A DNA stretch of 64,000 nucleotides, taken from Candidatus Helarchaeota archaeon (GTDB lineage: Archaea; Asgardarchaeota; Lokiarchaeia; Helarchaeales; RDOG01). Location of the stretch: NCBI GenBank assembly GCA_019058315.1, contig JAHPZH010000004.1:1-64000 (forward strand), in the 5' to 3' direction. Positions 91 to 17,936 of the stretch are shown here, in pieces. Positions within the stretch are counted from its first letter, which is position 1. Each line of letters opens with the position of its first letter. A model generated the notes under the pieces. The model was not told the origin of the DNA and did no database searches. It saw only the letters and a program-made list of their open reading frames with translations. A program made the translations under genes and the position numbers.

Positions 91-1479
91 TTATTCTGGT
101 GGTATAATTTCCTCCCAATCCTTTGTCTTTTCTAAATATTTTTCAGGAATTTGAATAATCCTTTTTTCTTTATCAATTTGATATATACGATTTAATTCAT
201 CAACCAATTCTGGAGTACTATTTAGAGCATTTTTAATTAAATCATTGTCTATCTCAAATAGTAAATATTGTTTTCCTTTTATTTTTAAGATTGCTTCCTT
301 TATTGGTTCTTCTGAAGTAATGTTTTTAATCAAATTATTAGATTCAAAGAGTTTTAACCTTCCTAATAAGTAGAATTTAAATAAAATATTGTCTAACCCC
401 ATAAATTTTACATCCAATGGTGGTACACTCGCAACCTGAAGACTTTTTGAAATAATATCAAGCAATCTAAAAGGAGATACACCTTTCTTTAAGACTTGGG
501 AATAATTTGTTGTGTTTATACTAGCGAGAAACGAATTTAATATTTCTAGGTCCCAAACTAAAAAATTGAATGACTGAGATTGAAAATATTTTTCTTTTCT
601 TTTATTAATATCAACATTAGGGATATGTCGTGGAGAAATTGATGCTGGTGGATATTTAAACACATCGTCTTTTCTAGGATTTGCCCTTATATTATCTAAT
701 TCGATTAGATTAAATTTTCTAAAAATAATACCCTCATTTTTTACTCCCATTACATCTTGAGCACGATTCCGATGAAATGGTAAATAGAATGATGAGCCTC
801 CATATACCCCATCATTACAAAATACCACATATTGATATTGGAGATATGTAAGAGCACTAAAAATATTTTTAAAAGTCACCACATCTTGTGTTTTTGCAGG
901 ACATATTATTAAATCAGTATATCCTTGAAGCGCAGATAAAATTGAAAAATCAGTTGCATCATAGCAGATTAAGACTGTAAAATCTCCTATTGGTGTGTTT
1001 ATAAAAACATTTATTATCGAACTAGACTTCATATAATCTTTTTCTTTCAAGGATGGATTAATTTTCCACTGAATTTCTTCCTTATTATTTACATAAATCG
1101 GACAATGATTCCCAGAATATTTATCATAATGACTTCCCATGACAATAATTGATTTTGAATCTTGGAATTTTTTCATCAGTTCATTACATATCCTCTGAGA
1201 TGTAGATAATTCTGGCAATACAATAAGGTCTGCTTCTTTTTTTATTGCTTCTTGGATATATTTTTCAATTTTTCTTTTTTGATCTTTTTCTGCTTGGATA
1301 GTCAATTTTGGAGGTGTAGTTTCTGTAAAATAATCAATAGGGGTTTCTATCTGAATATTTGCAACTAAAAAATCCCTTTCAATTTTAGGCTTTCCTAAAT
1401 CAATAAATCTTATACCTGGAAAAGACTTTTTAAAAATTTCAAGATCTCTATCTATCATATTAAATTTTTCAATAGACAA
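91..1479 (-). CDS. Carbon-nitrogen hydrolase (nitrilase-fold) domain protein with uncharacterised N- and C-terminal extensions
   Basis: E-K-C triad motifs: ADLIVLPELS, QWKINPS, VLICYDA; also NDGVYGGS. Confidence 0.75.
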   Translation of the reverse strand: MSIEKFNMIDRDLEIFKKSFPGIRFIDLGKPKIERDFLVANIQIETPIDYFTETTPPKLTIQAEKDQKRKIEKYIQEAIKKEADLIVLPELSTSQRICNELMKKFQDSKSIIVMGSHYDKYSGNHCPIYVNNKEEIQWKINPSLKEKDYMKSSSIINVFINTPIGDFTVLICYDATDFSILSALQGYTDLIICPAKTQDVVTFKNIFSALTYLQYQYVVFCNDGVYGGSSFYLPFHRNRAQDVMGVKNEGIIFRKFNLIELDNIRANPRKDDVFKYPPASISPRHIPNVDINKRKEKYFQSQSFNFLVWDLEILNSFLASINTTNYSQVLKKGVSPFRLLDIISKSLQVASVPPLDVKFMGLDNILFKFYLLGRLKLFESNNLIKNITSEEPIKEAILKIKGKQYLLFEIDNDLIKNALNSTPELVDELNRIYQIDKEKRIIQIPEKYLEKTKDWEEIIPPE

Positions 1480-1966: not shown

Positions 1967-4900
1967 TTGGAGAGAAAATTAGTGGATGAGGAATTAATAA
2001 GTAAAAAAGAGGAAAATATTGAAGATCTCGTTAAAAATATCAGGTTAAAGGCTGAAAAAGCCAAAACTGAAGAAGATATTAAAATGGCTATAGAAAAAAT
2101 CTTTGCCAATTATCTTCCTTCAAAAGGAATCAAAATTGACCCTAAATACGAAGTCACTTTATTAAAAGGTAGAGCAGATGCAGTATATCGAAGAGTAATA
2201 ATTGATTATAAAAAACCACATACTCTTGAGCAAGAAAATGTAAAAAATGATGTTATCAAAAAAATTAAAGATTATATTCAGAGTATTACTAAGGGGAAAA
2301 TCTCTCGAAAATTTGTTGGAATAGCTCTTGATGGTTTCAATATTATTTTTATTAGACCACCAAGGCAAATACTTAAGATGAAAGAAAAAAAGCCAAAAAC
2401 ACAACTTACATTAGATGGCACATTAAATAACTCAAAGACGATAGAAGAAAATTGGAAAATTTCCAAAGTTCTTCCAGTAAATAAAGAAACCATGGAAAGG
2501 TTATTTTTATATTTTCGTTCTCTATCTTTTAAAATTCTATCACCTGAGAATTTAGCTTATGATTTTGGTCATAAAAGCAAAATTGCCAATGAAGTTATTG
2601 GGATTTTTAATGAAAAATTGACTAAAATACAACATCCAAAAATTGAAGCTCTTTATATAGAATGGAAAAGGATTTTTGGTATAATATATGGTGAAGAAAT
2701 TTCTAAAGCTAAGAATTATCTTAAAGAATTAGCTGATTTTTACGGATTTCAAACAGAAGATTTAAGGAAATTGCTATTTTCGATTCATTCTTATTATGCT
2801 CTGTTAATGAAAATGATGGCTGCTGAAGTTCTATCTTTACAGACTGGCAGTTATTTTAGGTCTCTGGTTTCAGAAATTTCATTAATTTCAACTCTGGATT
2901 TAAAAGATAAAATGAGAGATCTAGAGGAAAAAGGTGGATTTTTTAAAAGATATGGAATATCAAATTTTTTAGAAGGTGATTTTTTTGGTTGGTATATAAA
3001 CTGTTATGATGAAGATATTGCCAATTGTATCAAAAAAATAGCTAAATGTTTATCGCGTTATGAGCCTGCTACCACTTCTTTAGAACCTGAATACACTAAG
3101 GATCTATTGAAAAAATTATACCAATACTTATTACCTAATGAATTAAGGCGTGCTTTAGGAGAGTTCTACACGCCTGATTGGCTAGCAGAACATTTGTTGG
3201 ATAGAGTTGGATATCAAGGTGAAATAAAAAAAAGAATTTTAGATCCCGCTTGTGGTTCGGGAACTTTTTTATCAAAAATCATTGCCAAAATTAAAGGAGT
3301 GGTTGAAGACAGTCCTGAAATTTATAATGATAAGAGAATAGTTTTGAATTCTATCCTTGAAAATGTTATCGGATTTGATATTAATCCTCTCGCTGTTATA
3401 TCGTCTAGGACTAATTATATTTTAGCTTTGGGAGGAGATTTAATTCGATATAGAAGTGGAGATATTGAAATTCCTGTATATCAATGTGATTCAATCCTAA
3501 TTTCGAGAAAATATTCGGTACTTTATGGTAAAAGGCATAAGATCAAAACATCTATTGGGGACTTTTATTTCCCTTCGGAATTAGCTGAAAAAAAGTATAT
3601 TGAAAAGATAGTAAGTAAATTAGAAGAAAATATTCCAAAGAAGATAGACTTAGAAATATTTCTAGATTCAGTAAAAAATGATTTGCCTCAAGAAATCTAC
3701 GAATTATGTATAAGTGATTTGTCTAATTTATATAAAGAACTAATAAAACTAGAAAAACAAAATAAAGATGAAATTTGGGCTAGGATTATTAAAAATTCAT
3801 TTGCCCCATTATTTGTAGGAAAATTTGATTATGTAATTGGTAATCCCCCTTGGATAAGATGGGGGCTATTATCAAAAGATTATCGCTCAGCAACGTTAGA
3901 AATGTGGAAAGATTACGGTCTTTTTTCTCTTAAAGGTATGGAGGCAAGATTAGGCTCAGGTGAAAAGGATTTATCAATGCTTTTCACTTACGCTTGTACA
4001 GATTTCTATTTGAAAGACGGAGGGACGCTAGGATTTCTTATTACTCAAGAAGTAATCAAAGCTAAGGGTGCAGGTGAAGGATTTAGAAAATTTAGGTTAG
4101 GAGAAAAAGGAAAACCCCTAAAAGTAATTGAATTTCAAGATTTAGTTACAATTCAGCCTTTTGAAGGAGCTAGTAATAAAACAGGCATGATAATTCTCCA
4201 AAAAGGAAGACCCACTGAATATCCTATCCGTTATATATTATGGGATAAAAAAGAGACCGTCCATCCTGATGCATCTTTGTCCGAAATATTTCATATTACG
4301 GACAGAAAAAAACTAATTGCACAACCAGTTGGTAATAAAAACACGGATCAATGGCTAACGATTGAAAAAAAATTTGTATCTATTATTTCTAAAATGAGGG
4401 GAAAATCGTTTTATAAGGCAATACGTGGAGCATCCATTGAACCTTATGGTGTTTATTATCTAGAAATAGTTTTAGTTCGTCCTGATGGTCTATTAATAAT
4501 AAAAAATTTACCTGAATTAGGTAGGAAAAAAATAAAAAAAGTTGAAGAAGTGATTGAACCGGATTTAGTTTTTCCGGCATTGAGAGGCAGAGATATTAAA
4601 AGATGGGGACATGATATTGATGTGTATACCATTATATCTCAAGATCCAGAGAAAAGAGAAGGGTATGATGAAAAATGGATGAATACTAACCTTCCCAAGA
4701 CTTATAATTATTTATTGGGATTTAAAGAGGATTTATTAAAAAGAAAAGGATATTGGAAATATTTCAGTAAAAAGATTAAAAGTAAAAAGAAATTATCAGA
4801 TAGTGAGTTAAAGAAAAAATATGGGAATTATCGCTATATTGGAAAACGTACTAAAAAGGTTGGAGATAGTTACCATGTCTATCAAGTTAATGACTCGGCT

Positions 4901-5374
4901 TTTTATACAATGTTCAATATAAGCAATGACTCATTCGCACCTTATAGGGTTGTATGGAAAAGAATGAGTAATGATTTAACAGCTACAGTAATATCTACGA
5001 CTAACACTCCTTATGGAAAAAAGCCAATTATTCCTACAGATACTACTGCCTTATTACCATTTAAAGAAAAAGATGAGGCGTATTATGTATGTGCCCTTTT
5101 AAACTCGACTTTAAGTAGTTTTTATATTAGAGCTTTTTCATCAGCTGGAAGAGGTTTTGGAGCACCTTCAATCTTAAAATTTGTAAAAATTCCTCAATAT
5201 GATAATAAAAATACCAATCATAAAAAATTGGCTGATTTATCGAAACTTGCTCATAAACAGGTAAAAGAAAATAAACTCGATAAATTGAAAAAAACAGAAA
5301 TTGAAATTGATGATATAACTCGACAAATATGGAATATAAGCAAAGTTGAATTGGGAAAAATTTTGAAAAGTTAA
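1967..5374 (+). CDS. Type IIG (REase-MTase-TRD fusion) restriction-modification enzyme, N6-adenine methyltransferase
   Basis: GEFYTP, motif I ILDPACGSG, motif IV NPPW, N-terminal GRAD..IIDYK nuclease-like motif, C-terminal TRD (LLNS). Confidence 0.9.
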   Translation: MERKLVDEELISKKEENIEDLVKNIRLKAEKAKTEEDIKMAIEKIFANYLPSKGIKIDPKYEVTLLKGRADAVYRRVIIDYKKPHTLEQENVKNDVIKKIKDYIQSITKGKISRKFVGIALDGFNIIFIRPPRQILKMKEKKPKTQLTLDGTLNNSKTIEENWKISKVLPVNKETMERLFLYFRSLSFKILSPENLAYDFGHKSKIANEVIGIFNEKLTKIQHPKIEALYIEWKRIFGIIYGEEISKAKNYLKELADFYGFQTEDLRKLLFSIHSYYALLMKMMAAEVLSLQTGSYFRSLVSEISLISTLDLKDKMRDLEEKGGFFKRYGISNFLEGDFFGWYINCYDEDIANCIKKIAKCLSRYEPATTSLEPEYTKDLLKKLYQYLLPNELRRALGEFYTPDWLAEHLLDRVGYQGEIKKRILDPACGSGTFLSKIIAKIKGVVEDSPEIYNDKRIVLNSILENVIGFDINPLAVISSRTNYILALGGDLIRYRSGDIEIPVYQCDSILISRKYSVLYGKRHKIKTSIGDFYFPSELAEKKYIEKIVSKLEENIPKKIDLEIFLDSVKNDLPQEIYELCISDLSNLYKELIKLEKQNKDEIWARIIKNSFAPLFVGKFDYVIGNPPWIRWGLLSKDYRSATLEMWKDYGLFSLKGMEARLGSGEKDLSMLFTYACTDFYLKDGGTLGFLITQEVIKAKGAGEGFRKFRLGEKGKPLKVIEFQDLVTIQPFEGASNKTGMIILQKGRPTEYPIRYILWDKKETVHPDASLSEIFHITDRKKLIAQPVGNKNTDQWLTIEKKFVSIISKMRGKSFYKAIRGASIEPYGVYYLEIVLVRPDGLLIIKNLPELGRKKIKKVEEVIEPDLVFPALRGRDIKRWGHDIDVYTIISQDPEKREGYDEKWMNTNLPKTYNYLLGFKEDLLKRKGYWKYFSKKIKSKKKLSDSELKKKYGNYRYIGKRTKKVGDSYHVYQVNDSAFYTMFNISNDSFAPYRVVWKRMSNDLTATVISTTNTPYGKKPIIPTDTTALLPFKEKDEAYYVCALLNSTLSSFYIRAFSSAGRGFGAPSILKFVKIPQYDNKNTNHKKLADLSKLAHKQVKENKLDKLKKTEIEIDDITRQIWNISKVELGKILKS

Positions 5375-5446
5375 TTAGGGATTTAAATAGTAGACAACCT
5401 TACTACGTTAGGTGTCGGTCTATCAGATAGAAAGAAATTAGAAAAA

Positions 5447-6799
5447 ATGGGTTTTACTGCGAGAGAAAAATTTATGTTTAAGCAGTATAAATACGATGTT
5501 GCATTATCATTTGCGACTGAAGATAGAAAAATTGTGGAAGAAATTGCAAATGAATTAAGAAATAATAGATTAAAAGTCTTTTACGACGATTTTTTAAAGG
5601 ATAAACTTTTAGGTAAGGATTTATACGAATATTTTAAAGATTCTTATGGGAAAAACACAAAATTTGTAATTATTTTCATTTCTAAACATTACCCATTAAA
5701 AGATTGGACTAATTTTGAATTTGAAATTGCCCGTGGAGAAGCAAAACAAAGGAAAGAAGAATTTATTCTACCTATAAGATTAGATGATACCCCCCTATTT
5801 GGTTTAAAACCTACTATAGGTTATATTAAATATCATAGCACAAACCTAATGGAAATAATTGATATTATTGTTAGAAAAGTTTATGAATTAGATAGAGATT
5901 TCTATCAAAAACATCTAGAAGTCCAAGATTTTAGCATTATTTCTGGTACTGTGACATCTTATTCATTTTGTATTATTAAGTTTAGTCCAACTAGTAATTT
6001 GAGGGTCACATTTGATTCTAAATATTCTAGTACAAATTGCATTGACATGGGTATTAAAGTAATTTTAGATGGTATTAATGATTTTATTAATGGTAATTTA
6101 AGGTTAACTAATTATACATGCGATCCGACATTATTGTCAAGGGAAATGAATCTTTATAGTCTGAAAGAAGTAAAAATAACATTAAATGACTCATTTAGTG
6201 CAATGGCTTTAGGACCAGATGTAATAGGAGCTTCTATAAGGGCCATGATCTATTGCCTAAATGAATTTTTTACGTTGAAATTTAAAGATCAAAATCTTTT
6301 AATAAATTTCTTGAAAAATGGATTAAAATTTAGTAGGGGTAAGCAAAAAGCTTCAATGGATTTGAAACCAGTGCAAAAATATTTCAAACAAAATATAGAA
6401 GAACTAAAGATTGGTCCGTATATTAAAATAAATGAATTAATAATCAATACGAGTATCTTTCACGCTATTGCCACCGTCAGTCTTGAAATTTCGCAAAAGG
6501 GTGAAAAACTTACTATTACATCCATTATAAAGGATATTGGAGCTATTCATGCAGTAATAGGGGCTATCCTTAAGCCATTTAAAGGTAAAGTCGAGTTAAA
6601 CAAATTTAATTTAGGTAAAATCAGTGTCATTGATACAAGTGAAATTCAAGCTAAAGTATCATTGGAATTAAGAGATTCCGATAAAAAAACCTATCAAACA
6701 AATGCTATTCACGAAGATGTTATCATGGCTACAGTTATAGCTATTTTAAAGGGTCTAAATAACATTTATTCTTCAAATATGACATCTAATTTAATATAA
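5447..6799 (+). CDS. TIR domain protein fused to two LeuA-type allosteric (LeuA_dimer-like) domains
   Basis: YDVALSFATEDR..VFYD..FISK.Y..KDWTNFE with catalytic Glu; C-terminal repeats ending GPDVIGASIRAMIYCLN and HEDVIMATVIAILKGLN; GAIHAV resembles GPVDAL. Confidence 0.75.
   Translation: MGFTAREKFMFKQYKYDVALSFATEDRKIVEEIANELRNNRLKVFYDDFLKDKLLGKDLYEYFKDSYGKNTKFVIIFISKHYPLKDWTNFEFEIARGEAKQRKEEFILPIRLDDTPLFGLKPTIGYIKYHSTNLMEIIDIIVRKVYELDRDFYQKHLEVQDFSIISGTVTSYSFCIIKFSPTSNLRVTFDSKYSSTNCIDMGIKVILDGINDFINGNLRLTNYTCDPTLLSREMNLYSLKEVKITLNDSFSAMALGPDVIGASIRAMIYCLNEFFTLKFKDQNLLINFLKNGLKFSRGKQKASMDLKPVQKYFKQNIEELKIGPYIKINELIINTSIFHAIATVSLEISQKGEKLTITSIIKDIGAIHAVIGAILKPFKGKVELNKFNLGKISVIDTSEIQAKVSLELRDSDKKTYQTNAIHEDVIMATVIAILKGLNNIYSSNMTSNLI
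5651..5811. repeat. Left arm of perfect 161-bp inverted repeat (partner 7811-7971)
   Basis: aaaaacacaaaatttg...ggtttaaaacc is the exact reverse complement of 7811-7971; encodes the TIR C-terminal half. Confidence 0.95.
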
Positions 6800-6915
6800 T
6801 CCTAGAGATTTTCTTCTTTTTTTTAATTCAATTATAGATAATGGATTTATACATTAAAAATTAGAAAATCAGACATTATACTTTTCTAAAATCATGCATT
6901 GGTATTTTCTTATTG

Positions 6916-8148
6916 CTAAGTATTTGATTTCAAAACACTTGAGACTTCTTCTTTAACTTCATCAAATGCGAGTTGATAGAATTCAAATATCTCACATAAA
7001 GGACTAAATAATTTCATGAGTATTTCTATTAATTTTTGACTTTTATTTGTAATATTTATTATTAAATTGGAAGTGATAGAATCTTGGTGAGCAGTGTGGG
7101 GAATAAATGGAGAAGCTATTGCATCAAGATGGACATGTGCAATTTTACGATTTTTTAACCCCTCCCAAGTAATACTAAAAGCAATTTCTCTTGAGTCAGG
7201 TGAAAGTTTTTTAGTAAAACGATATGAATGAAGTAGACATTCAGTAATTCTATGTATTGGAAAAGTGATATCAAAGGTACTCCCTGGTTTTATTTCAGAA
7301 GAACTATCCTCAAAATATCCTTGTAATAAAAACATTTTTCCCTTTGGGGACGCACGCCAAAAATCAGAATGTCTAGGATCTTCATCCAACCCATATAACC
7401 ATGATTCAATATGCTCCTCATAAGGATGCGGTCTAAATTCAGCTATGGGACTAATTTTCCAAGGTGGCCAGCTACTCCCCTCTAATTCTATTTTTTCTAA
7501 AATTTCTAATAAGTTTTTGAGAGAAAGTGGTTCAAAATTACCAATTATTGAATAAGCAACATACCATGCTCCATATTGAAAGGGAGTCTGTTTTTTATCA
7601 GGTAATTTCTCTTTAATTAACTGTTGCCATCTTGTTTTTGATTTCAGAGTCCAAAATTGAAGCATTTGCAATTCTAATTCTTTAGAAATATGAATATTTC
7701 TTTTATTTCTAATTTGATTTTCAGTAAAACTCTTTGATGTTTTTAATTTCTTTTCAATTATATCAATAATCTTTTCCTTACCTTCTTTATAATCTAAATA
7801 ACCTACAGTGGGTTTTAAACCAAATAGGGGGGTATCATCTAATCTTATAGGTAGAATAAATTCTTCTTTCCTTTGTTTTGCTTCTCCACGGGCAATTTCA
7901 AATTCAAAATTAGTCCAATCTTTTAATGGGTAATGTTTAGAAATGAAAATAATTACAAATTTTGTGTTTTTAGCATAAGCCTCTTCAAAATATTTTGATA
8001 AGTCTTTTCCCCAAATTGTAACCTGATAAAATTCGTCATAAAAAATTTTTAAATTTCGCTTCTTTAATTCAAATGCAATCTCTTCTACAATTTTCCTGTC
8101 TTCACCAGCGAAAGATAATGCAGCATCAAATTCTAATTTAGGAACCAT
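6916..8148 (-). CDS. TIR domain protein with uncharacterised C-terminal alpha/beta domain
   Basis: FDAALSFAGEDR..IFYD..FISK..WTNFE; C-terminal WPPW and DFWRASP.G.MF..GY.ED motifs. Confidence 0.8.
   Translation of the reverse strand: MVPKLEFDAALSFAGEDRKIVEEIAFELKKRNLKIFYDEFYQVTIWGKDLSKYFEEAYAKNTKFVIIFISKHYPLKDWTNFEFEIARGEAKQRKEEFILPIRLDDTPLFGLKPTVGYLDYKEGKEKIIDIIEKKLKTSKSFTENQIRNKRNIHISKELELQMLQFWTLKSKTRWQQLIKEKLPDKKQTPFQYGAWYVAYSIIGNFEPLSLKNLLEILEKIELEGSSWPPWKISPIAEFRPHPYEEHIESWLYGLDEDPRHSDFWRASPKGKMFLLQGYFEDSSSEIKPGSTFDITFPIHRITECLLHSYRFTKKLSPDSREIAFSITWEGLKNRKIAHVHLDAIASPFIPHTAHQDSITSNLIINITNKSQKLIEILMKLFSPLCEIFEFYQLAFDEVKEEVSSVLKSNT
7811..7971. repeat. Right arm of perfect 161-bp inverted repeat (partner 5651-5811)
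   Basis: Direct base-by-base comparison; flanks diverge immediately. Confidence 0.95.
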
Positions 8149-8196: not shown

Positions 8197-11100
8197 TTAT
8201 TCTAAAGTTATAAAGTCGAATAAATTTCTTAAATAATTCATATATATGCCCCAGTACACTTTATAATTTGTATCATTAATTATTGGTAGAAATGTATAAA
8301 TTATCCATTCCTCTCCTGCTACTATGACATACCATACATATTTTTTCATGTTAATAATATTTTTTAAAGTCTCCCAACCCCAATTAAAAGCTAGATCTGG
8401 ATTAATTTCGTATACTTCGTTTATTTTTTGATAATGTGCTTCTCTATCTGTTGGAGCATATAATTTTGCAAGAGCTAATCGCTCCTGAATATTATATTTC
8501 TCTTCCAATTCCTCATTTTCTTTAAAAATCTTTTTAAAAAAATTAGTAAGAACATAATTCAAAGGATATTTTAAGAATCCCCCTAAATAGGGTCTATCTT
8601 TAGTTAAATAATTAAATAGATTAATCCATTTTTGTACATCCTTATCAATTGAATAGACTTTATACAAAAGAGCTCTAAGAGATATTTTTGCATTCCTTTG
8701 TTCACTAATTTTTTTTACTTCAATAATAAATTCCTCTGGGGGCATTAATTTTTTATATAACTTTTTCACTATCGATTCATCAATTATAATTTCCGTTTTT
8801 TTAACAGGTTCTATATCAGAATTATAAATTTCCGAAAAATAAGTCAGCTTTTTCTTAATTTCCAAAAACAAATCATGATTCCAATCCTCTATAATATGTA
8901 GAAAGCATTCTTTCAAAAAATTAATAGAATTTTTCTCAGTATTATCACTGACAAAATTTAATATTTCAACTATCCAATGAATTTCCCTAATGAATTGTTC
9001 ATCTTGTTCATCAAAGAATTTAATAATGTTCTTTAGTAAGTGTTTTAAAAAAAATAACTGATAATCCTTTCTCGGTCCAATTCTAAATGAAATTTTCTTA
9101 TAAAAATCTTCGAATTTCGGAATATTCTGATCTACATACAATTGATGAGTTATCCTTATTGATTGGGAAGCTTTCAAACTGACTAAAAACGTATCATTAT
9201 TCTCCCATGGTTCAGTAATATTAAGGATTGCTGACAGATTTTTCTGGAGTATTTCCTTTATTAGATCATCTAGAACATCATTTTTAAAGATCTGTTTCAA
9301 TCTTATACAAATCTGAAGTTGAGTTAAGAAACTTTGGAATTTTCCTTTTCCTATGTAAAATTTTTGTTTTAATGTTTCTAAAAAAAAATCCTTAATAGAT
9401 TCACTTAATAATCCTATTTGATCAATAAATATTGCCATAAAATCTTTGAAATAATAATACCAATGTAAATTAATACTGGGTTCGCAATCCATTAAATTTA
9501 GAATGTTTGATATCACATTCTTCATTTGTTCTTCGTCAATTTCACCCATACTTAAAATAGCAAAATCTCTAATATTTAATTCCCAACGAAAATAATAATG
9601 TTCTTTTTCCATTAATAAATGATCCAAATTATTAATTTGATAATTAGAATTGAAAATATCAAGCAATTTTTTATCATCTTGAATTGGCCAAATGTCTAAA
9701 AGATTTTTGTAAAGGTTTATCCGACTTAGAATTTTACTTTTCGGATCACCATAAAGGGAAAAGCGCATCCGTGGACCGTCTTTAAATAAAAGTCTAACAT
9801 CATTATCCGAAATTTTATCTGGATGAAAGAATAAATTATATTTCCTCCTTGTATTTGTAAAATCATTATCCCATAAAACGTGATAAAATGGAAATTGATC
9901 TAAAAAATCAGTAATTAGATCTTCTTCTTTGGCATATGATTCATAGATTTTTAATTGTAAAATTACACCAAATGGAGTCATTCTGTCATATTGAGGCCAA
10001 TGACTGGCGAAATTATTGGTATCTTTATTCTTATATCTGAAATGTCTAAAACTATATACCTTCCAACCACCTTTTTCTATAATTTTTTCTAAATATCTAT
10101 AGACATGAGCCAAATCAGTAAAACGGTTATTCTCAATTAAATATTCTCCTAAAACATAAATTGCACCAAAAAAATCAGAATTTAGATAATATGGACCTCT
10201 TATTTTATGATTAAAAAGTTCGCTTAAAATAAGGTCAAATGAGTTTAAAATAGAGGTAATACTTTCAAATTTAATAGCGATATATGTCCAATCATCAATA
10301 TATTTAAGCAGATCTTGATGGAAAAAATGATTTGGGATTGTGGCTTTATTTTGATTATAAAAATCTTTTAGGAATGGCACTAATCCTGTAATATTATTTA
10401 TATTTAGAAGCTGAATAATAAGATCTAATTTTAAATTATAATCTAAGTTTTGCGAATGTAGAGTCGTAATGAGTACATAAAAGCAGGTTCCGAAATCATT
10501 TATAAAAAAATTGAGTAATTCACTTAAATATCCAAAATTCTCTTCATAAATATTGTTTCTTATCTCAAATTCCCCTTTTAAAAAGAAAAATTCGAAAAAT
10601 TTTTTAAAATCTTTAATTTCATGGAGGAAATTCAGAATTTCTGTCAGATCTTCTAAAATATCGCACACGGGTCGAAATTGGATAAATTGATTCAAAAAAT
10701 ATGAACGATCTAATTTTAAAATATCATCTTTATTATCTGAATATAATAAATAATACAATTTATACCAATTATGAACTCCACTTGAGTTGTAGTTATCACA
10801 ATAATCATTTAATATGGAATAATATTCTTTAGATTTATTCTCAGAAAATATTTGTAAATATTTTGCAGATTTTTCAAATAAAAAATCTTTGAAAGTATTA
10901 TATTTAAATAAGTAAAGATTTTCTATTTTTAAAAATAAAAAATCAAAATTATTAAAAAAACGCTCAATTTTTTTAATTTCAGGCCAAATAATCAACCAAT
11001 TTACATCAATTGGACCTATTAACCTGGAAATAAGTCCAGCTATTTTTAAATATTCTTCATTAGAATTGAAATTAAACTTTTGCCAGTATGCATCATATAA

Positions 11101-12612
11101 TTTATATATATTCTCTTCAAAATCAATAAATTCCTCTAATTTCTCTTCAAAATTTTGTAAATCCGCTAAATTAGGATATTTATTACAAATGATATTGAGA
11201 TACTGCGGATTACCCCCTGTCTTTTCAAGTATTTGGGAAATTTGAATTATACCCATTTTTCTGGAGTATTTTTTAAATAAAAACTCTTCAACCTGCTCAT
11301 AATAAAATGGCTCAACTTCAAATTTAGATATCAAATCTGTATAAGAATCCAAATCTCTGAACCAAGATATATCATTGAAATGTTGTCCAGATAGCAGGAT
11401 AATAACATTATCGGGGAGTTGTCTAGGAGTTGGTAATTTTTCTAAAAACGGTTGCGTAGCTCTCTGCATTCTTAAGACATGATCTATTCCGTCAATAATG
11501 ACTAAAACCTTAGTATTTCTTTCACTGGTAAGGTTACTTAAAGAATTAATTAATTCATTAAACTTTTCTTCCTCACTCAAATTAAAAGATGATTCTCCTA
11601 AAAAATTTGAAAATTGAATGTTCATTTCTTTAAAAAAAATGTCTGATTCTCCTCGAACCTTCAATGTATAATGTCGATCATCCCTAAAACATAGATATCT
11701 AAAAATAATATATTTGGGAAATGCAGTTTCATTAATTTCTGCTTGAAGAAATGTTGATTTCCCTAATCCGGCACCCCCTTCTAAAAAAAGGTACCCTTTA
11801 TTTAATTTATCAATCGAGCTTCTAATATTATTTGATAATTCTCCCCTTTTTATGTATTCATTCTCATTATAAGGAAAATCATGTAACAAAGGATCATAAT
11901 AATATCCTATATCTTGAAGAAATTGTTCAATTGTAACAGAATTTTTAATTGAATTCTTTTTATTTAAAAACCAATTATAATATTTCCTTTTTTTCGTTTT
12001 TTCATAAACAGATCGTTCTTTATAGAATTTAACATTAAATTCAAAATTTAATTTCTTTAAAAAATCAAATAGTATTTGTTCTTCACAATTAAGATGGTCC
12101 TTAAATAGTTTAAACCATTCGTTTAATATTCCTGGTTGTAAAAAATTATCTTCACTTATTTCATTATTTTTAAAGGATTGCCAATATTGCTTTATAAATT
12201 TTTGTAGTGATATTTTTTCGTTTTGGTATATTGGCATATATTTTGTGGATCTGGCAGATTGACTAGGACTTTTACTCGTCACATAATAAATTTTAAATTT
12301 ATAATTTGGAAATTCTTTCTTTATTTGCTTAAACGTAATAAATAATTTTTCTACTACAGATTTTTTACTATTATTTCCAAAAAGATCGGATAAATTACAA
12401 GTAAAATCTTCTTCAGCACCTTTTGCTTGAATACAAACTAATAATCTTCCTTTAAGTAAAAATCCTATATCATCAGCACTACCAAGTTTCTCATTATTTA
12501 ATAAAATTTCAATAATTGAATTTTCATTAAGATAAGATTCAAGATAATCGCTAAATACAGTTGCTTCAAATCGCCTTCCAATATTTACACTTCTATCACC
12601 TCTAGCACTCAA
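8197..12612 (-). CDS. STAND/NACHT-like NTPase with N-terminal PD-(D/E)xK nuclease-like domain (Avs-like defence protein)
   Basis: ADDIGF..CIQAK; Walker A GGAGLGKST; Walker B VIIDGIDH; GGNPQY; long helical C-terminal region. Confidence 0.75.
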   Translation of the reverse strand: MSARGDRSVNIGRRFEATVFSDYLESYLNENSIIEILLNNEKLGSADDIGFLLKGRLLVCIQAKGAEEDFTCNLSDLFGNNSKKSVVEKLFITFKQIKKEFPNYKFKIYYVTSKSPSQSARSTKYMPIYQNEKISLQKFIKQYWQSFKNNEISEDNFLQPGILNEWFKLFKDHLNCEEQILFDFLKKLNFEFNVKFYKERSVYEKTKKRKYYNWFLNKKNSIKNSVTIEQFLQDIGYYYDPLLHDFPYNENEYIKRGELSNNIRSSIDKLNKGYLFLEGGAGLGKSTFLQAEINETAFPKYIIFRYLCFRDDRHYTLKVRGESDIFFKEMNIQFSNFLGESSFNLSEEEKFNELINSLSNLTSERNTKVLVIIDGIDHVLRMQRATQPFLEKLPTPRQLPDNVIILLSGQHFNDISWFRDLDSYTDLISKFEVEPFYYEQVEEFLFKKYSRKMGIIQISQILEKTGGNPQYLNIICNKYPNLADLQNFEEKLEEFIDFEENIYKLYDAYWQKFNFNSNEEYLKIAGLISRLIGPIDVNWLIIWPEIKKIERFFNNFDFLFLKIENLYLFKYNTFKDFLFEKSAKYLQIFSENKSKEYYSILNDYCDNYNSSGVHNWYKLYYLLYSDNKDDILKLDRSYFLNQFIQFRPVCDILEDLTEILNFLHEIKDFKKFFEFFFLKGEFEIRNNIYEENFGYLSELLNFFINDFGTCFYVLITTLHSQNLDYNLKLDLIIQLLNINNITGLVPFLKDFYNQNKATIPNHFFHQDLLKYIDDWTYIAIKFESITSILNSFDLILSELFNHKIRGPYYLNSDFFGAIYVLGEYLIENNRFTDLAHVYRYLEKIIEKGGWKVYSFRHFRYKNKDTNNFASHWPQYDRMTPFGVILQLKIYESYAKEEDLITDFLDQFPFYHVLWDNDFTNTRRKYNLFFHPDKISDNDVRLLFKDGPRMRFSLYGDPKSKILSRINLYKNLLDIWPIQDDKKLLDIFNSNYQINNLDHLLMEKEHYYFRWELNIRDFAILSMGEIDEEQMKNVISNILNLMDCEPSINLHWYYYFKDFMAIFIDQIGLLSESIKDFFLETLKQKFYIGKGKFQSFLTQLQICIRLKQIFKNDVLDDLIKEILQKNLSAILNITEPWENNDTFLVSLKASQSIRITHQLYVDQNIPKFEDFYKKISFRIGPRKDYQLFFLKHLLKNIIKFFDEQDEQFIREIHWIVEILNFVSDNTEKNSINFLKECFLHIIEDWNHDLFLEIKKKLTYFSEIYNSDIEPVKKTEIIIDESIVKKLYKKLMPPEEFIIEVKKISEQRNAKISLRALLYKVYSIDKDVQKWINLFNYLTKDRPYLGGFLKYPLNYVLTNFFKKIFKENEELEEKYNIQERLALAKLYAPTDREAHYQKINEVYEINPDLAFNWGWETLKNIINMKKYVWYVIVAGEEWIIYTFLPIINDTNYKVYWGIYMNYLRNLFDFITLE

Positions 12613-12900: not shown

Positions 12901-14097
12901 CTAAGATTGAACACTCAATGCTTCATCAATTTTTTTCATTAAGAGACTCGCTAAAAAGATAAAATGAATTGCCTTTTCTTTAGTAACTTTAAAAATATCA
13001 TGAGCTTTTGGATTTCTGATTCCTTGTATCGAACCTGCAAATATATGCATATATCCTTCTTGTATATCTTTGCTTGTTTGGTCATTTAAATTACCAAGAA
13101 ATATAATTGGATTATCCTTATTAAATACTCTAAACATCAAATCTTTACCATTTTTTTCTTCCCCAGTCTTATCTCTATAAATTTCTTTTACTCGTATATT
13201 AATTTGTAAAAATGCTTCAAATACCGCTTGTTTAAAATGTCCATCCATAAATAGATCTCTGGCAACTTTAACAATTTCTTTATGAATAATATCCCAAAAA
13301 CTTACATCGTATTTCTTTCTTTTGTTTCTTTTAATTTCCTCGTATTTGATATGATATTCTTCTGATAACAAATATTTATTCAGACTAAATAGGATTAAAT
13401 TATTAAGAATTTCAAAACAACCTAATTTGTTAACTGGGTTCTCATCCAGTATTAATTCTTGTAATTCGGTTAAATTTTCCAGACCTTTTATCTCCTGAAT
13501 TTCATTTTCTTCAAGATATAATTCTACTAATTTAGCGAGATTGTCTAATCCTTCCAAATTTCTGATGTTATTAGAATCCAAGTGTAATTTTATTAATGAA
13601 GAAAGGCTATTTAGGCCTTCAATTTTCATAATATGGTTGTTTTTAAGGAATAGCATTTCTAATTGAGAAAGTCTTTCTAATCCCTCAATTTTTCTGATCT
13701 GATTGTGAGAAACATCTAATATTTTCAACTTGAAAAGATTTTCTAATCCTTCAATCTTACTTATTTGATTTTCAGAAAGTGATAAGTCCTCTAATTGAAT
13801 TAAATTTTGCAATCCTTTAATCTTAGAAATAGAGTTATCCCTTAAATTCAAATATTGTAATTTTTGAAGGGTCTCAAGATTTTCTATTTTATTAATTTGA
13901 TTATTACTAAGATCTAACCATTTTAAATTTAAGAATTGCCTAATACATGAGGGTATTTCTTTCAAACTCTTACTATTAAATTTAAGCTTTATTAAGTTTC
14001 CTTGTTCGTTGAAAATGAAATCTTTTTTGTTAAATTTGAAGAGTCTCTTTAAATCATCAATTAAAGATTTTTCATGTAAATTATCAATTTCTTCCAT
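12901..14097 (-). CDS. SDS22-like leucine-rich repeat protein fused to C-terminal TIGR02391-like domain
   Basis: About 7-8 LxxLxLxxNxIxxIEGL repeats; C-terminal G.FKQAVFEA..GKDLM..QEGY..F.G....RNPKAH. Confidence 0.8.
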   Translation of the reverse strand: MEEIDNLHEKSLIDDLKRLFKFNKKDFIFNEQGNLIKLKFNSKSLKEIPSCIRQFLNLKWLDLSNNQINKIENLETLQKLQYLNLRDNSISKIKGLQNLIQLEDLSLSENQISKIEGLENLFKLKILDVSHNQIRKIEGLERLSQLEMLFLKNNHIMKIEGLNSLSSLIKLHLDSNNIRNLEGLDNLAKLVELYLEENEIQEIKGLENLTELQELILDENPVNKLGCFEILNNLILFSLNKYLLSEEYHIKYEEIKRNKRKKYDVSFWDIIHKEIVKVARDLFMDGHFKQAVFEAFLQINIRVKEIYRDKTGEEKNGKDLMFRVFNKDNPIIFLGNLNDQTSKDIQEGYMHIFAGSIQGIRNPKAHDIFKVTKEKAIHFIFLASLLMKKIDEALSVQS

Positions 14098-17100: not shown

Positions 17101-17936
17101 ACCTCTCTTGCATTATATTCTTCAGCTTTAATTAAAATATAATGGCGTAATGCAGTTGTGACTGATCCTGGCAATACTAAAATTATCTTATCATCAATCT
17201 CTACAAAGGGTTTTAAAATTAATGGATTTTTATCAATCTCTTGCGCTTTAAGATCAGGATCACCAATTGTAGTAATAAATTGATTAAGAATCGTGTAATC
17301 TAATCCGAGATCTTCTAATAAGGAATTTATCTCATCTTTAGTGAAAATAACTGAGTTACATATTTTGTTTATTTTATCTTCTCTTGGTATTAGAATATTT
17401 TCTCCTGAACGATCTGGGCTAACCATATTACGATGATGTCCTAAGCGAGAAGCAACCTCATTACTCAATGTTAATAGAGCTAGAGAATACTTTAAAACAA
17501 TTTCGATATAATTTCTATATAAACCACCTCTCGATTGAAAGATACTATGAAAAAGAGCTTGGAGAATATATGTGTCACTTGTATTATTACCTGAATAAAT
17601 AATATAGTTTCCCCCAACAAAAATTATATTTTCTGTAAAAAGATTTTCTAATGGATCTTCCATCATTCCAAAATATCCATTTGCTGGAAGAAACAAATTT
17701 AATAGTTTTTGTAAATGTTCAAAATCTAATTTTTTATTTCCTCCATCCTTAATTAAACAAGCAATTCTTGTTGCTGTTTCTAAACGAATAGTCTGAGCTT
17801 GATTTTCAGGACAAACTTGTAATCCACTAAGAATAGCAATTAAGTCAAGTTGGTCAAATTTTTCAAATTCTAATTTTAATTGTTCTAACGAATTTGTCAT
17901 AAAATACACCCCTAATTTAAAGATATTGTTAATCAA
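14172..17936 (-). CDS. Large hypothetical protein with C-terminal PD-(D/E)xK nuclease domain
   Basis: GDIDVLVID..SIECKN..KH..R..WL near the C-terminus; probable start at MTNS (17900). Confidence 0.65.
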   Translation of the reverse strand: MINNIFKLGVYFMTNSLEQLKLEFEKFDQLDLIAILSGLQVCPENQAQTIRLETATRIACLIKDGGNKKLDFEHLQKLLNLFLPANGYFGMMEDPLENLFTENIIFVGGNYIIYSGNNTSDTYILQALFHSIFQSRGGLYRNYIEIVLKYSLALLTLSNEVASRLGHHRNMVSPDRSGENILIPREDKINKICNSVIFTKDEINSLLEDLGLDYTILNQFITTIGDPDLKAQEIDKNPLILKPFVEIDDKIILVLPGSVTTALRHYILIKAEEYNAREVLIKKYRESLWQYVNERLFLMGLQPIELDLPNWNNELPIKEGTFQIDTDKIAYIQLIVDNAKDYNEQEIDGICDWDNIIPNLEKRREDIVKWLTKGDIMTPCRSPCAKVFLIIILGSIGRTILFGSKKIIDKSRTLIISPDDLDLIIRNDLDNLTLWKYAGATQKLLESQTLLRFSFIDGFAFYLDHRQSFYFDDNRPSNIIYISSGSGRSLRIKTKRDWDVHAVRYGNPPSYISVFRRFLDESIPIYKLEKAMANFWEHLVEGYAQPIWISPEFTDIDILLRHKKIFLEITDMFSYWIWQLTPELRKHLEILGPNPTHIKYNLEDFISWSDLTRLEGAENLNINFKYKFDNRTIIFTLPKNIQFELLKEDNRGERLIIKELMRAFREFLNELNLDNDLNNVEIDRILNKIAPLGKKKKLFLLTMKNNLSLYPKNLPMLRLIPEHDLEEQLDNLVNELGIDIPQNIKIIKKEDHTKICGKIVDIYLERLKAMISKFNWKNLLERLIGENEAVWYHRAFKRLTTPTSIACYWDNKSFLEKELTKFPRYENTALSTRVLIEIITAEPSKGEVLVSNDDLDKLLAMTYHLINWATLSDQTHLEIFDHEISILPSGRIGVKKEIIEQFTTNFLGSKILENIEDAINGFESHYESNYDSSDFNRNEYERVYNAEFGFTFTQISSFLAHLIDLGFGQDTYAPNLRLSELKNKLGSILNWSNTEIENIINLFSLGPREKWELAPEGFNPREDIWPWRYNRRLSYMRKPLIIAPEPIQDPLVFWGPRHLFKSSQYLFNLISTGRYKNPSSQEMKEFKGKILEKIGKKFVNEVKEWFDKNSDWHIELQVPIKPGKPLNSDIDLGDIDVLVIDKENNRLFSIECKNISFGRNPREIANELDEFFGKKPENASWIKKHLDRDKWLRNNIALLTSLYDLNPKLLTINSCFLTVEEIPSTYIKKMPLPFIAFTLLKREGLKTMNDLDDK

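What the first reader, a model, noticed from the sequence alone, without database searches (positions are those of the whole stretch)
5447..6799. TIR domain fused to tandem LeuA-type amino-acid-binding domains
Seen: after the TIR (catalytic Glu in WTNFE) come two ~120-aa units with the pattern of the isopropylmalate/citramalate synthase regulatory domain (AT(V).L..G(P/A)(V/I).A..L..(Y/F)..V...D(V/I)..A(S/T)..A...LN). Established: that domain binds Leu/Ile at a dimer interface, and prokaryotic TIRs are NAD+-consuming enzymes activated by oligomerisation. Inference: a single-chain pseudo-dimer could make this a metabolite-gated NADase or signalling TIR that senses amino-acid pools or a viral protein. 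I do not recognise this architecture from described defence systems.
Basis: partly seen in the sequence, partly recalled or inferred. Interest (0 to 1): 0.8.

Follow-up and report, generated by a model that had tools for sequence, protein, structure and literature searches.

The report
TIR enzyme fused to double LeuA-type sensor
An archaeal defence-island gene joins a TIR domain, which probably breaks down NAD+, to two diverged copies of the amino-acid-binding regulatory domain of leucine-pathway enzymes; this domain combination was found nowhere else, and it may be a metabolite-gated immune switch.

Summary
ORF 5447-6799 (450 aa) has an AbTIR-like TIR domain with the catalytic Glu (E91, in WTNFE). 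Two LeuA/CimA-type regulatory domains follow it.

- **Repeat 2:** clear match. Pfam LeuA_dimer scores 50 bits, and the fold match to the isoleucine-bound citramalate synthase regulatory domain 3f6h has Z 14.
- **Repeat 1:** below Pfam's cut-off when tested alone (13.5 bits). It aligns over the whole domain with the host's own LeuA C-terminus (BLASTP E 7e-9; shuffle z 12.9).
- **Pairing:** a complex prediction packs the two repeats into a pseudo-symmetric LeuA-like dimer (ipSAE 0.81, best control 0.01). This pass may come from likeness to solved LeuA dimers.
- **Rarity:** the C-terminal half has no relative in 1.84 billion representative proteins, 400 genomes of the phylum, GTDB, IMG/VR or JGI metagenomes.
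- **Second sample:** a marine-sediment run from another study carries a variant about 93% identical. It has the same tandem and an excess of synonymous changes.
- **Setting:** a defence island with a type IIG restriction enzyme, a paralogous TIR gene, a STAND NTPase and an LRR-Ymh protein.

Ligand gating and NADase activity are untested. Best reading: a stand-alone TIR effector with a new small-molecule sensor. This scan has not noted this architecture on other DNA.

The parts
5447..6799 (+). ORF P0001, 450 aa: TIR plus tandem LeuA-type regulatory domains. A second in-frame ATG at 5474 (Met10) aligns with the start of the paralogue and may be the true start.
5489..5854 (+). TIR domain (residues about 15-136), AbTIR/BtTIR-like
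   Evidence: Pfam TIR_2 E 4.2e-15; PDB 7uxr E 1e-7, 7uwg, 8g83; PADLOC PDC-S66 and ThsB partial hits
5717..5719 (+). Codon of Glu91 in WTNFE, at the position of the catalytic Glu of AbTIR-type NADases
   Evidence: alignment to WTNYE of 7uwg/8g83; motif indexed
5651..5811 (.). Left copy of a perfect 161-bp inverted repeat inside the TIR-coding part. The right copy is at 7811-7971, in the paralogue.
   Evidence: Logan unitigs of run X1 break here and the repeat unitig has double depth
5921..6280 (+). Repeat 1 (residues about 159-278): a strongly diverged LeuA-type regulatory domain with predicted beta3-alpha x2 topology
   Evidence: BLASTP to own LeuA C-terminus E 7e-9; shuffle z 12.9; Pfam alone 13.5 bits; topology; pLDDT 78 in the complex model
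6281..6421 (+). Basic linker of about 47 residues (pI 9.9 computed for residues 281-322), predicted helical with low confidence. Most amino-acid changes in the X2 variant fall here.
6422..6781 (+). Repeat 2 (residues about 326-445): LeuA_dimer regulatory domain
   Evidence: Pfam 50.1 bits; NCBIfam IPMS C-terminus; hhalign 98%; Foldseek E 2.7e-6 and VIA Z 14.0 to 3f6h; atlas rows all LeuA_dimer
5382..5389 (+). TTTAAATA, an archaeal TATA-box-like octamer 8 nt after the stop of the restriction gene. It suggests the gene has its own promoter (inference only).
   Evidence: sequence read
6810..6824 (+). T-rich run just after the stop codon, like an archaeal oligo-T terminator (inference only)
   Evidence: sequence read
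6916..8148 (-). Convergent paralogue P0003 (410 aa). Its TIR is 71% identical to that of P0001. Its C-terminal 275 aa has no known family.
1967..5374 (+). Upstream neighbour on the same strand: type IIG restriction-modification enzyme
   Evidence: PADLOC REase_MTase_IIG 968.9 bits; Pfam Eco57I, N6_Mtase
8197..12612 (-). STAND NTPase (1471 aa) with an Avs1b-like NTPase module, 48 bp upstream of the paralogous TIR gene
   Evidence: PADLOC Avs1b E 1e-20; NCBIfam Avs1b 47.8 bits, far below its cut-off; weak NACHT/nSTAND3

Best explanation
P0001 is most likely a stand-alone, single-chain immune effector of an archaeal defence island.

- **Killing or signalling part:** the N-terminal AbTIR-type TIR domain, with its catalytic Glu91 intact. 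It would cleave NAD+ (or make a cADPR-type product) once TIR domains are brought together.
- **Control part:** the two diverged LeuA/CimA-type regulatory domains at the C-terminus. They would fold back on each other into an intramolecular copy of the regulatory-domain dimer of isopropylmalate/citramalate synthases. That dimer holds its amino-acid ligand at the interface.
- **Proposed switch:** occupancy of one or both interface pockets by a small molecule would decide whether the module stays closed (TIR idle) or allows TIR self-association (TIR active). The ligand would be a hydrophobic amino acid, or something shaped like one.

Shown here: the domain identities, the intact catalytic motif, the defence-island setting, and purifying selection in a second sample.

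Modelled only: the pseudo-dimer.

Inferred: NADase activity, ligand binding, and the direction of gating.
For: Domains:
- TIR_2 E 4.2e-15 and LeuA_dimer E 8.7e-16.
- The TIR aligns to NAD+ hydrolase AbTIR with WTNFE over WTNYE.
- Repeat 2: Z 14.0 to Ile-bound LiCMS regulatory domain 3f6h and Z 11.6 to M. tuberculosis LeuA.
- Repeat 1: E 7e-9 and z 12.9 to the host LeuA regulatory domain. Across 400 genomes, six of its eight hits outside its own gene lie in long frames of 516-548 aa, the size of LeuA enzymes.

Pseudo-dimer:
- ipSAE 0.81 (median of 3 runs) against a best control of 0.01. That mark was reached by 58 of 80 solved complexes and by 2 of 110 mismatched pairs. Partner pLDDT is at least 75 and at least 84% of contacts are shared between runs.
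- The interface uses the same four elements in each repeat: 161-169, 195-200, 219-228 and 257-261 in repeat 1; 330-338, 364-368, 386-398 and 423-427 in repeat 2.
- Positions equivalent to the LiCMS Ile-pocket residues stay largely hydrophobic. Y430 becomes I199/I367, L451 becomes L220/L384, Y454 becomes Y223/F387, and P493' becomes P257/E423. This mapping comes plus my memory of the residue list.

Real and selected:
- A second study's sediment run holds a variant about 93% identical. Single contigs span the end of the TIR into repeat 1, and repeat 1 into repeat 2.
- Of 25 listed differences, 11 are synonymous against 21% expected (binomial p 0.008).

Setting:
- Neighbours are a type IIG R-M enzyme, a STAND NTPase, an LRR-Hypoth_Ymh protein and a DRT-type nitrilase.
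- The TIR module has 267 relatives, and the 120 best listed carry many different partner domains (TPR, LRR, RelE, Mrr, kinase). Three relatives that were inspected are solitary genes beside GmrSD, a methyltransferase or an integrase.
Against: - No biochemical data exist.
- The G-x-G-P-V-D-A motif at the N-terminus of the first helix is changed in both repeats. The G-G loop of repeat 2 is lost. The canonical amino-acid site may therefore be altered or dead.
- Repeat 1 fails Pfam's threshold when tested alone. It had low pLDDT in the AlphaFold model, where no alignment covered it.
- The complex pass can come from likeness to solved LeuA/CimA dimers.
- The dN/dS estimate rests on a partial list of differences. 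With a 30% synonymous expectation, p is only 0.10.
- The protein has no family, so nothing can be learned from co-variation or conserved neighbours.
- A closed pseudo-dimer does not by itself explain how TIR domains would be brought together.
Confidence: 0.5

Rival explanations
1. The LeuA-type tandem is not a small-molecule sensor. It would be an assembly or bait module. Either repeat 1 of one chain pairs with repeat 2 of another, giving head-to-tail oligomers that cluster the TIR domains, or the module is bound by a viral protein and that binding triggers the TIR.
For: - In its parent enzymes the domain is first of all a dimerisation domain (the Pfam name is 'allosteric (dimerisation) domain').
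- The ligand motif is degraded in both repeats.
- A linker of about 47 residues would allow pairing between chains.
- Relatives of this TIR mostly carry protein-binding partners such as TPR and LRR.
Against: - Pocket-equivalent positions remain hydrophobic and lie at the modelled interface.
- The prediction was made with separate chains, so it cannot tell pairing within one chain from pairing between chains.
Confidence: 0.22
2. The protein is a metabolic or physiological regulator rather than an immune protein. It would be a TIR enzyme that consumes NAD+ or makes a signal in response to branched-chain amino-acid levels, for example in starvation or dormancy control.
For: - The LeuA regulatory domain is otherwise known only in amino-acid metabolism.
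- Unchecked notes of this scan describe it redeployed on ThrC-like enzymes and on dead LeuA paralogues, always in ilv/leu contexts.
Against: - No amino-acid biosynthesis gene lies nearby. The neighbours are restriction, STAND, LRR-Ymh, nitrilase and HEPN/PD-(D/E)xK genes.
- The genome's real leuA is on another contig.
- The gene is absent from the other 399 genomes of the phylum that were searched. That pattern fits accessory defence genes rather than core regulators.
Confidence: 0.1
3. The beta3-alpha units bind nucleic acid, and the TIR is triggered by viral RNA or DNA.
For: Secondary fold matches to dsRBD proteins (TARBP2, Loqs, NF90, RNase III), RAD52, ribosomal uS5 and HPF/RaiA at Z 7-9.
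Against: - These Z values are within the range the tool calls common arrangements. They stand well below the LeuA matches (Z 11.5-14).
- The repeats are not more basic than a genuine LeuA regulatory domain: pI 6.75 and 8.85 against 8.60.
- Sequence homology is to LeuA, not to dsRBDs.
Confidence: 0.07
4. The gene is an assembly chimera or a decaying, functionless fusion. The 161-bp inverted repeat could have let the assembler join the wrong halves.
For: - Short-read unitigs of the probable source run break at both repeat copies, and the repeat unitig has double depth. The de Bruijn graph alone therefore does not fix the orientation of the 2-kb inner segment.
- The protein is a singleton in all databases searched.
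Against: - Either orientation still yields an in-frame TIR-LeuA tandem, because the repeat lies inside the TIR domain and most of the inner segment codes for the rest of the two genes.
- An X2 contig of 668 nt bridges the right repeat copy in the orientation of the window.
- The ORF is intact and synonymous changes are in excess in X2.
- Both repeats keep domain-length homology to LeuA despite only about 23-35% identity. That implies long maintenance.
Confidence: 0.04

Closest known systems
Ligand-activated TIR effectors of bacterial immunity (TIR-SAVED of CBASS/type III CRISPR, TIR-STING); from my own knowledge of the field
   Same: One chain joins a TIR NADase to a small-molecule-binding domain. 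The expected logic is that ligand state controls TIR assembly and NAD+ destruction.
   Different: - There is no SAVED or STING domain (Pfam). The sensor here is a tandem LeuA/CimA regulatory domain, which is a metabolite-binding fold.
- No cyclase or other signal-making gene was recognised nearby.
- The host is an archaeon.
AbTIR / BtTIR / TcpB-type bacterial TIR NAD+ hydrolases (PDB 7uwg, 8g83, 7uxr, 4lqc)
   Same: These are the best sequence matches of the TIR domain, and the W-T-N-x-E catalytic motif is conserved.
   Different: Those proteins carry coiled-coil or other N-terminal parts and no LeuA-type domain. Identity is modest (E 1e-7 to 1e-3).
Regulatory domain of citramalate synthase / 2-isopropylmalate synthase (LiCMS 3f6g/3f6h with isoleucine; M. 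tuberculosis LeuA 1sr9/3fig with leucine; Pfam PF08502)
   Same: - Repeat 2 shows the fold and sequence family at Z 14.0 and 11.6 and 50 bits. Repeat 1 is homologous at E 7e-9 to the host LeuA.
- The modelled repeat-repeat interface uses the elements that form the ligand site in the enzymes' homodimer.
   Different: - There are two copies in one chain instead of one copy per subunit.
- There is no catalytic TIM barrel.
- The G-x-G-P-V-D-A motif is changed.
- The domain is attached to a TIR domain.
Thoeris ThsB and PADLOC candidate PDC-S66 (TIR proteins of defence systems)
   Same: Partial HMM matches over the TIR region: PDC-S66 at 52.7 bits and ThsB at E 1.8e-5.
   Different: - No ThsA-like SIR2/SLOG or Macro partner was found among the neighbours scanned.
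- The matches cover only the TIR domain.

Membership tests
TIR domain (Pfam TIR_2, PF13676), AbTIR-type NADase | HMM match above the gathering score | tested here: met
   56.7 bits against a cut-off of 28, residues 18-130
TIR domain (Pfam TIR_2, PF13676), AbTIR-type NADase | Catalytic glutamate in the W-x-x-x-E motif | tested here: met
   WTNFE (87-91) aligns with WTNYE of AbTIR 7uwg/8g83
TIR domain (Pfam TIR_2, PF13676), AbTIR-type NADase | NAD+ cleavage that depends on self-association | not testable with these tools
   Needs an enzyme assay
LeuA allosteric (dimerisation) domain, PF08502 | HMM match above the gathering score (24.9 bits), each repeat tested alone | tested here: inconclusive
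   Repeat 2 passes at 50.1 bits. Repeat 1 fails at 13.5 bits, E 0.068, but is homologous to the host LeuA regulatory domain by BLASTP E 7e-9 and shuffle z 12.9.
LeuA allosteric (dimerisation) domain, PF08502 | beta3-alpha x2 fold superposable on solved regulatory domains | tested here: met
   Repeat 2: Z 14.0, rmsd 3.0 over 118 residues to 3f6h_B; Z 11.6 to 1sr9_B. Repeat 1: same order of secondary structure but low pLDDT. It was never searched alone, so it is inconclusive for that half.
LeuA allosteric (dimerisation) domain, PF08502 | Two domains pair through the ligand-site face | tested here: inconclusive
   Prediction only: ipSAE 0.81 against a best control of 0.01, with a pseudo-symmetric interface. 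The pass may come from likeness to solved dimers.
LeuA allosteric (dimerisation) domain, PF08502 | Binds Leu/Ile at the interface | not testable with these tools
   Pocket-equivalent residues are mostly hydrophobic, but the G-x-G-P-V-D-A motif is altered. No amino-acid ligand is offered by the complex tool.
2-isopropylmalate / citramalate synthase (enzyme family) | HMGL-like catalytic TIM barrel | tested here: not met
   No HMGL-like match in P0001. NCBIfam IPMS models match only their last 120 or so positions, far below their cut-offs.
Thoeris (ThsB plus ThsA) | TIR protein next to a SIR2/SLOG or Macro effector | tested here: not met
   There are weak ThsB HMM hits only. None of the flanking proteins from 91 to 20472 has a SIR2, SLOG or Macro domain.
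AVAST/Avs-type STAND systems with a TIR effector | TIR fused to, or functionally tied to, the STAND NTPase | tested here: inconclusive
   The STAND gene (8197-12612) is co-oriented with the paralogue P0003, not with P0001. Its Avs1b match is 47.8 bits against a cut-off of 1500. The three TIR relatives inspected elsewhere have no STAND gene nearby.
TIR-SAVED / TIR-STING ligand-activated effectors | SAVED or STING sensor domain | tested here: not met
   No such Pfam or PADLOC match. The protein may work like these effectors, but it is not a member.

The most novel reading that the evidence does not exclude
An archaeal immune TIR NADase is gated directly by the free pool of a branched-chain or other hydrophobic amino acid (or a virus-made mimic). 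The gate would be a single-chain copy of the LeuA feedback site. Cellular amino-acid status, disturbed by infection, would then be read as the danger signal. This would be a new class of metabolite-sensing immune receptor in the archaeal lineage closest to eukaryotes.
Probability: 0.2. Interest if true: 0.85.

Novelty: new variant of a known kind. Interest (0 to 1): 0.6.

Why it matters
TIR enzymes are shared by bacterial, plant and animal immunity. What switches them on is the central question for each system. Known prokaryotic TIR effectors are triggered by nucleotide second messengers, by guide-bound Argonautes or by sensing of viral proteins.

A TIR joined to the feedback-inhibition domain of amino-acid biosynthesis would suggest a different input: primary-metabolite levels. 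It would also show that this allosteric module can be moved out of metabolism into conflict systems.

The tandem, self-pairing layout gives a compact, testable one-protein model. The host is probably an Asgard archaeon, which adds interest for the ancestry of eukaryotic TIR signalling.

The limits are that it is one gene plus one environmental variant, and there are no functional data.

Tried and rejected
- **AlphaFold2 on the single full-length sequence:** failed, mean pLDDT 32.
- **Patchwork alignment A4** (TIR fragments plus LeuA fragments): MAFFT misaligned it, stretching the fragments across the whole protein, so it was not used.
- **phmmer of repeat 2 against PDB sequences:** no hit. Only a profile reached 3f6g.
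- **ESM-Atlas features for repeat 1 alone:** no usable hit. The whole C-terminus scored only 0.77 to LeuA_dimer clusters, which is a lead only.
- **Direct repeat 1 against repeat 2 comparison:** not significant, BLASTP E 0.3 and shuffle z 2.5. Each repeat resembles LeuA more than it resembles the other.
- **Searches for relatives of residues 150-450:** none found.
  - k-mer/HMMER search of 5.8 billion proteins, at near and shorter lengths
  - exhaustive phmmer of 1.84 billion representatives
  - 400 genomes of the phylum, where only LeuA enzymes matched
  - GTDB genome contigs, IMG/VR and JGI metagenome contigs
  - fused forms longer than 788 aa were covered only by the exhaustive representative search
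- **Literature:** no paper joins 'TIR domain' with LeuA in this sense.
- **Expression:** no RNA holder is listed among the sequencing runs.
- **Inversion across the 161-bp repeat:** no joint showing it was seen. The runs are kept only as contigs that break at the repeat, so this says nothing either way.
- **Reading as one three-gene system with the STAND gene:** rejected as the main reading. P0001 is on the other strand and has its own TATA-like box. TIR relatives elsewhere are solitary.
- **Residue-level description of the LeuA/LiCMS pocket in the held papers:** not found. The residue list is from my memory of Zhang et al. 2009 (Biochem J). It was checked only in that all six residue letters fit the 3f6g sequence under one offset.
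Full report
**What is there.**
- The window is AT-rich (about 27% G+C). It carries an archaeal proteasome beta-alpha pair at 29.3-30.6 kb. The assembly has 5.8 Mb in 12 contigs and is 94% complete.
- I did not verify the lineage. Other notes of this scan call it an Asgard archaeon. One TIR relative is named from a Kariarchaeaceae archaeon.
- ORF 5447-6799 on the plus strand is open for 450 codons.
- A second in-frame ATG at 5474 aligns with the start of the paralogous gene and could be the real start.

**The TIR domain.**
- Pfam TIR_2 covers residues 18-130 at 56.7 bits, E 4.2e-15.
- Against PDB sequences, the best matches are bacterial TIR proteins: 7uxr (E 1e-7) and the NAD+ hydrolase AbTIR 7uwg/8g83.
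- WTNFE (87-91) lies on their WTNYE, so Glu91 occupies the catalytic position.
- PADLOC gives only partial matches limited to the TIR: PDC-S66 at 52.7 bits, and weak ThsB hits.

**The two LeuA-type units.**
- Pfam LeuA_dimer matches the whole protein at E 8.7e-16 with two stretches. I tested the halves separately.
- Repeat 2 (about 323-445):
  - It scores 50.1 bits alone and matches the last 120 or so positions of NCBIfam isopropylmalate synthase models.
  - It aligns at 98% hhalign probability with a profile of LeuA C-termini from related genomes.
  - An AlphaFold2 model of residues 150-450, whose alignment covered repeat 2 only, has pLDDT 62-92 there.
  - Foldseek places the isoleucine-bound regulatory domain of Leptospira citramalate synthase (3f6h, 3f6g) and M. 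tuberculosis LeuA (1sr9, 3fig) on top, at E 3e-6 to 2e-5.
  - VIA-align gives Z 14.0 (rmsd 3.0, 118 residues) and Z 11.6, well above the next unrelated rows at Z 9 or less.
  - All rows of the ESM Atlas shape search are LeuA_dimer proteins.
- Repeat 1 (about 159-278) is much more diverged:
  - Alone it reaches 13.5 bits (E 0.068), below Pfam's cut-off, and 19% hhalign probability. Language-model features find nothing.
  - It does align over 116 residues, both beta3-alpha halves, with the regulatory domain of the genome's own LeuA (contig 7, P0006) at BLASTP E 7e-9.
  - The Smith-Waterman score of 84 was never reached in 2000 shuffles (mean 27, z 12.9). Two unrelated control segments gave z 0.5 and -0.8.
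  - Searched across 400 genomes of the phylum, repeat 1 gave eight weak hits outside its own gene. Six lie in long frames of 516-548 aa, the size of LeuA enzymes, including the genome's own LeuA. Two lie in short frames.
  - Its predicted secondary structure is beta3-alpha twice. In the complex model it folds with pLDDT 78 without any alignment.
- I take both units as homologues of the LeuA/CimA regulatory domain.
- The two repeats are hardly recognisable as relatives of each other (E 0.3, z 2.5).
- Repeat 2 is closer (32-35% identity) to the LeuA of another family of the same class than to the host's own LeuA (23%). The fusion is therefore old, or built from two sources. It is not a fresh copy of the resident leuA.

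**Do the repeats pair?**
- I gave repeat 1 (155-300) and repeat 2 (300-450, with its alignment) to the complex predictor as separate chains.
- The median ipSAE was 0.81 and the best of three controls was 0.01. In the tool's calibration this mark was reached by 58 of 80 solved complexes and by 2 of 110 mismatched pairs. Partner pLDDT was at least 75, and the runs share at least 84% of their contacts.
- The interface is pseudo-two-fold. In each repeat it uses the first strand, the N-terminus of the first helix, the fourth strand with its loop, and the N-terminus of the second helix.
  - Repeat 1: 161-169, 195-200, 219-228, 257-261.
  - Repeat 2: 330-338, 364-368, 386-398, 423-427.
- From memory of Zhang et al. 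2009, the isoleucine pocket of LiCMS is lined by Y430, L451, Y454, I458 and V468 of one subunit and P493 of the other. All six letters fit the 3f6g sequence under a single offset of 389 in the alignment, which supports that recollection.
- Their equivalents all lie in the modelled interface. I458 falls in an alignment insert and was not mapped.
  - Repeat 1: I199, L220, Y223, K240, P257.
  - Repeat 2: I367, L384, F387, A402, E423.
- The model thus reproduces the ligand-bearing face of the enzyme dimer within one chain.
- Two cautions apply. Solved LeuA/CimA dimers exist, so the pass may reflect likeness rather than this protein's behaviour. Separate chains also cannot tell pairing within a chain from pairing between chains.
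- The conserved G-x-G-P-V-D-A motif reads S-T-N-C-I-D-M in repeat 1 and D-I-G-A-I-H-A in repeat 2, and the G-G loop of repeat 2 is gone. The ligand, if any, need not be Leu or Ile.

**How rare is it?**
- Residues 150-450 have no relative at E <= 0.001 in any of these searches:
  - the exhaustive search of 1.84 billion representatives
  - the 5.8-billion-protein word search, at near or shorter lengths
  - GTDB genomes, IMG/VR and JGI metagenomes
- In 400 genomes of the phylum, only ordinary LeuA enzymes match.
- The TIR module has 267 relatives. It sits at either end of those proteins and is joined to TPR, LRR, metallophosphatase, RelE, Mrr, kinase, receiver and unknown domains. None of the 120 best has LeuA_dimer.
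- The own genome holds only two TIRs of this type, both in this locus.
- No held paper combines TIR with the LeuA domain.
- Unchecked notes of this scan describe the LeuA domain redeployed on ThrC-like enzymes and dead LeuA paralogues. Those cases are always single-copy and metabolic.

**Is it real and maintained?**
- Run X1 (a sediment metagenome, probably the source) holds 99% of the sampled words.
- Run X2 (a marine sediment metagenome from another study) holds contigs 90-95% identical over 5558-8094.
  - One contig covers 5803-6200, from the end of the TIR into repeat 1.
  - One contig covers 6222-6779, from repeat 1 through repeat 2.
- Of the 25 differences listed inside the ORF, 11 are synonymous. 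About 21% would be expected for random changes (binomial p 0.008; p 0.10 if 30% is assumed).
- Replacements cluster in the linker (residues 283-319), and repeat 2 shows mostly silent changes.
- The list is partial: 108 differences were not shown. This is therefore an indication of purifying selection and not a measurement.

**Surroundings.**
- Upstream on the same strand lies a type IIG restriction-modification enzyme (PADLOC 968.9 bits). A TTTAAATA box follows 8 nt after its stop, and a T-run follows the stop of P0001. This suggests that P0001 is its own transcription unit.
- Convergent with P0001 is P0003. Its TIR is 71% identical to that of P0001, and its 275-aa C-terminus matches nothing.
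- P0003 lies 48 bp downstream of a 1471-aa STAND NTPase with an Avs1b-like NTPase module.
- Further along come an LRR-Hypoth_Ymh protein, a 1254-aa protein without any Pfam match, and a PD-(D/E)xK/HEPN pair.
- On the other side lies a nitrilase of the type attached to defence reverse transcriptases.
- This is a defence island.
- Three relatives of the TIR module on long contigs are solitary genes beside GmrSD, a D12 methyltransferase or an integrase, with no STAND gene nearby. This favours P0001 acting on its own.

**The inverted repeat.**
- The two TIR genes share a 365-nt inverted repeat at 83% identity. Inside it is a perfectly identical block of 161 bp (5651-5811 and 7811-7971), flanked by sequence about 75% identical.
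- X1 unitigs end at both copies. The 161-nt unitig has depth 36.8 against 19-21 around it. Short-read graphs therefore do not fix the orientation of the 2-kb inner segment.
- Inversion would exchange the C-terminal parts of the two proteins in frame.
- An X2 contig (7430-8094) bridges the right copy in the orientation of the window. That supports the arrangement as given.
- In either orientation, the LeuA tandem is fused to a TIR domain.

**Mechanism and verdict.**
- The best-supported reading is a one-protein TIR effector whose activity is set by a single-chain LeuA-type regulatory dimer.
- It works like ligand-controlled TIR effectors such as TIR-SAVED and TIR-STING, but with a sensor fold taken from amino-acid feedback control.
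- I put about 0.5 on that overall picture. I put about 0.2 on true gating by an amino-acid-like metabolite.
- Rivals, in order: an assembly or bait role for the tandem, a metabolic role, nucleic-acid sensing, and artefact.
- This is a new variant of a known kind. The architecture is new and the case is clean, but it rests on one gene and one environmental variant without experiments.

Noticed in passing
window 5651-5811 and 7811-7971: A perfect 161-bp inverted repeat lies inside the two convergent TIR genes, with flanks only about 75% identical. Source-run unitigs break at it and the repeat unitig has double depth. Inversion would swap the two C-terminal modules in frame. No inverted form was seen, but contigs cannot show one. 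This fits recent gene conversion or an invertible segment.
   Followed up: partly
window 8197-12612 (-) and 6916-8148 (-): A 1471-aa STAND NTPase has an Avs1b-like NTPase module and no recognisable N- or C-terminal domains. It is followed after 48 bp by a TIR protein whose 275-aa C-terminus matches no family. They may form a two-gene STAND-TIR system.
   Followed up: partly
window 12901-14097 (-): An LRR protein is fused to a Hypoth_Ymh/TIGR02391 domain (Pfam 100.6 bits), co-oriented with the STAND gene.
   Followed up: no
window 91-1479 (-): A 462-aa protein has a nitrilase domain most like the nitrilase modules of defence reverse transcriptases (PADLOC RTasNitrilase E 7e-29, Drt1a E 2e-26). 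It has no reverse-transcriptase part.
   Followed up: no
window 14172-17936 (-): A 1254-aa ORF with no Pfam match at all sits inside the defence island.
   Followed up: no
window 19253-20472 (-): Two overlapping genes: a weak HEPN match (E 0.0012) upstream of a weak PD-(D/E)xK / AHJR-like match (E 0.0013). They may be a small toxin-type pair.
   Followed up: no
P0001 repeat 2 against loci L004-L022: Repeat 2 shares the H-E-D-[IV]-[VI]-M motif and 32-35% identity with LeuA enzymes of another family of the same class. It shares only 23% with the genome's own LeuA. Repeat 1 aligned with the own LeuA (E 7e-9), gave no tblastn hit better than E 2.8 in those loci, and reached LeuA C-termini of other genomes only weakly. 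The two repeats may have different origins.
   Followed up: partly
window 25816-26487 (-): A 223-aa ORF has a sub-threshold Pfam hit to Bunya_RdRp (19.1 bits against a cut-off of 25). This is probably chance.
   Followed up: no
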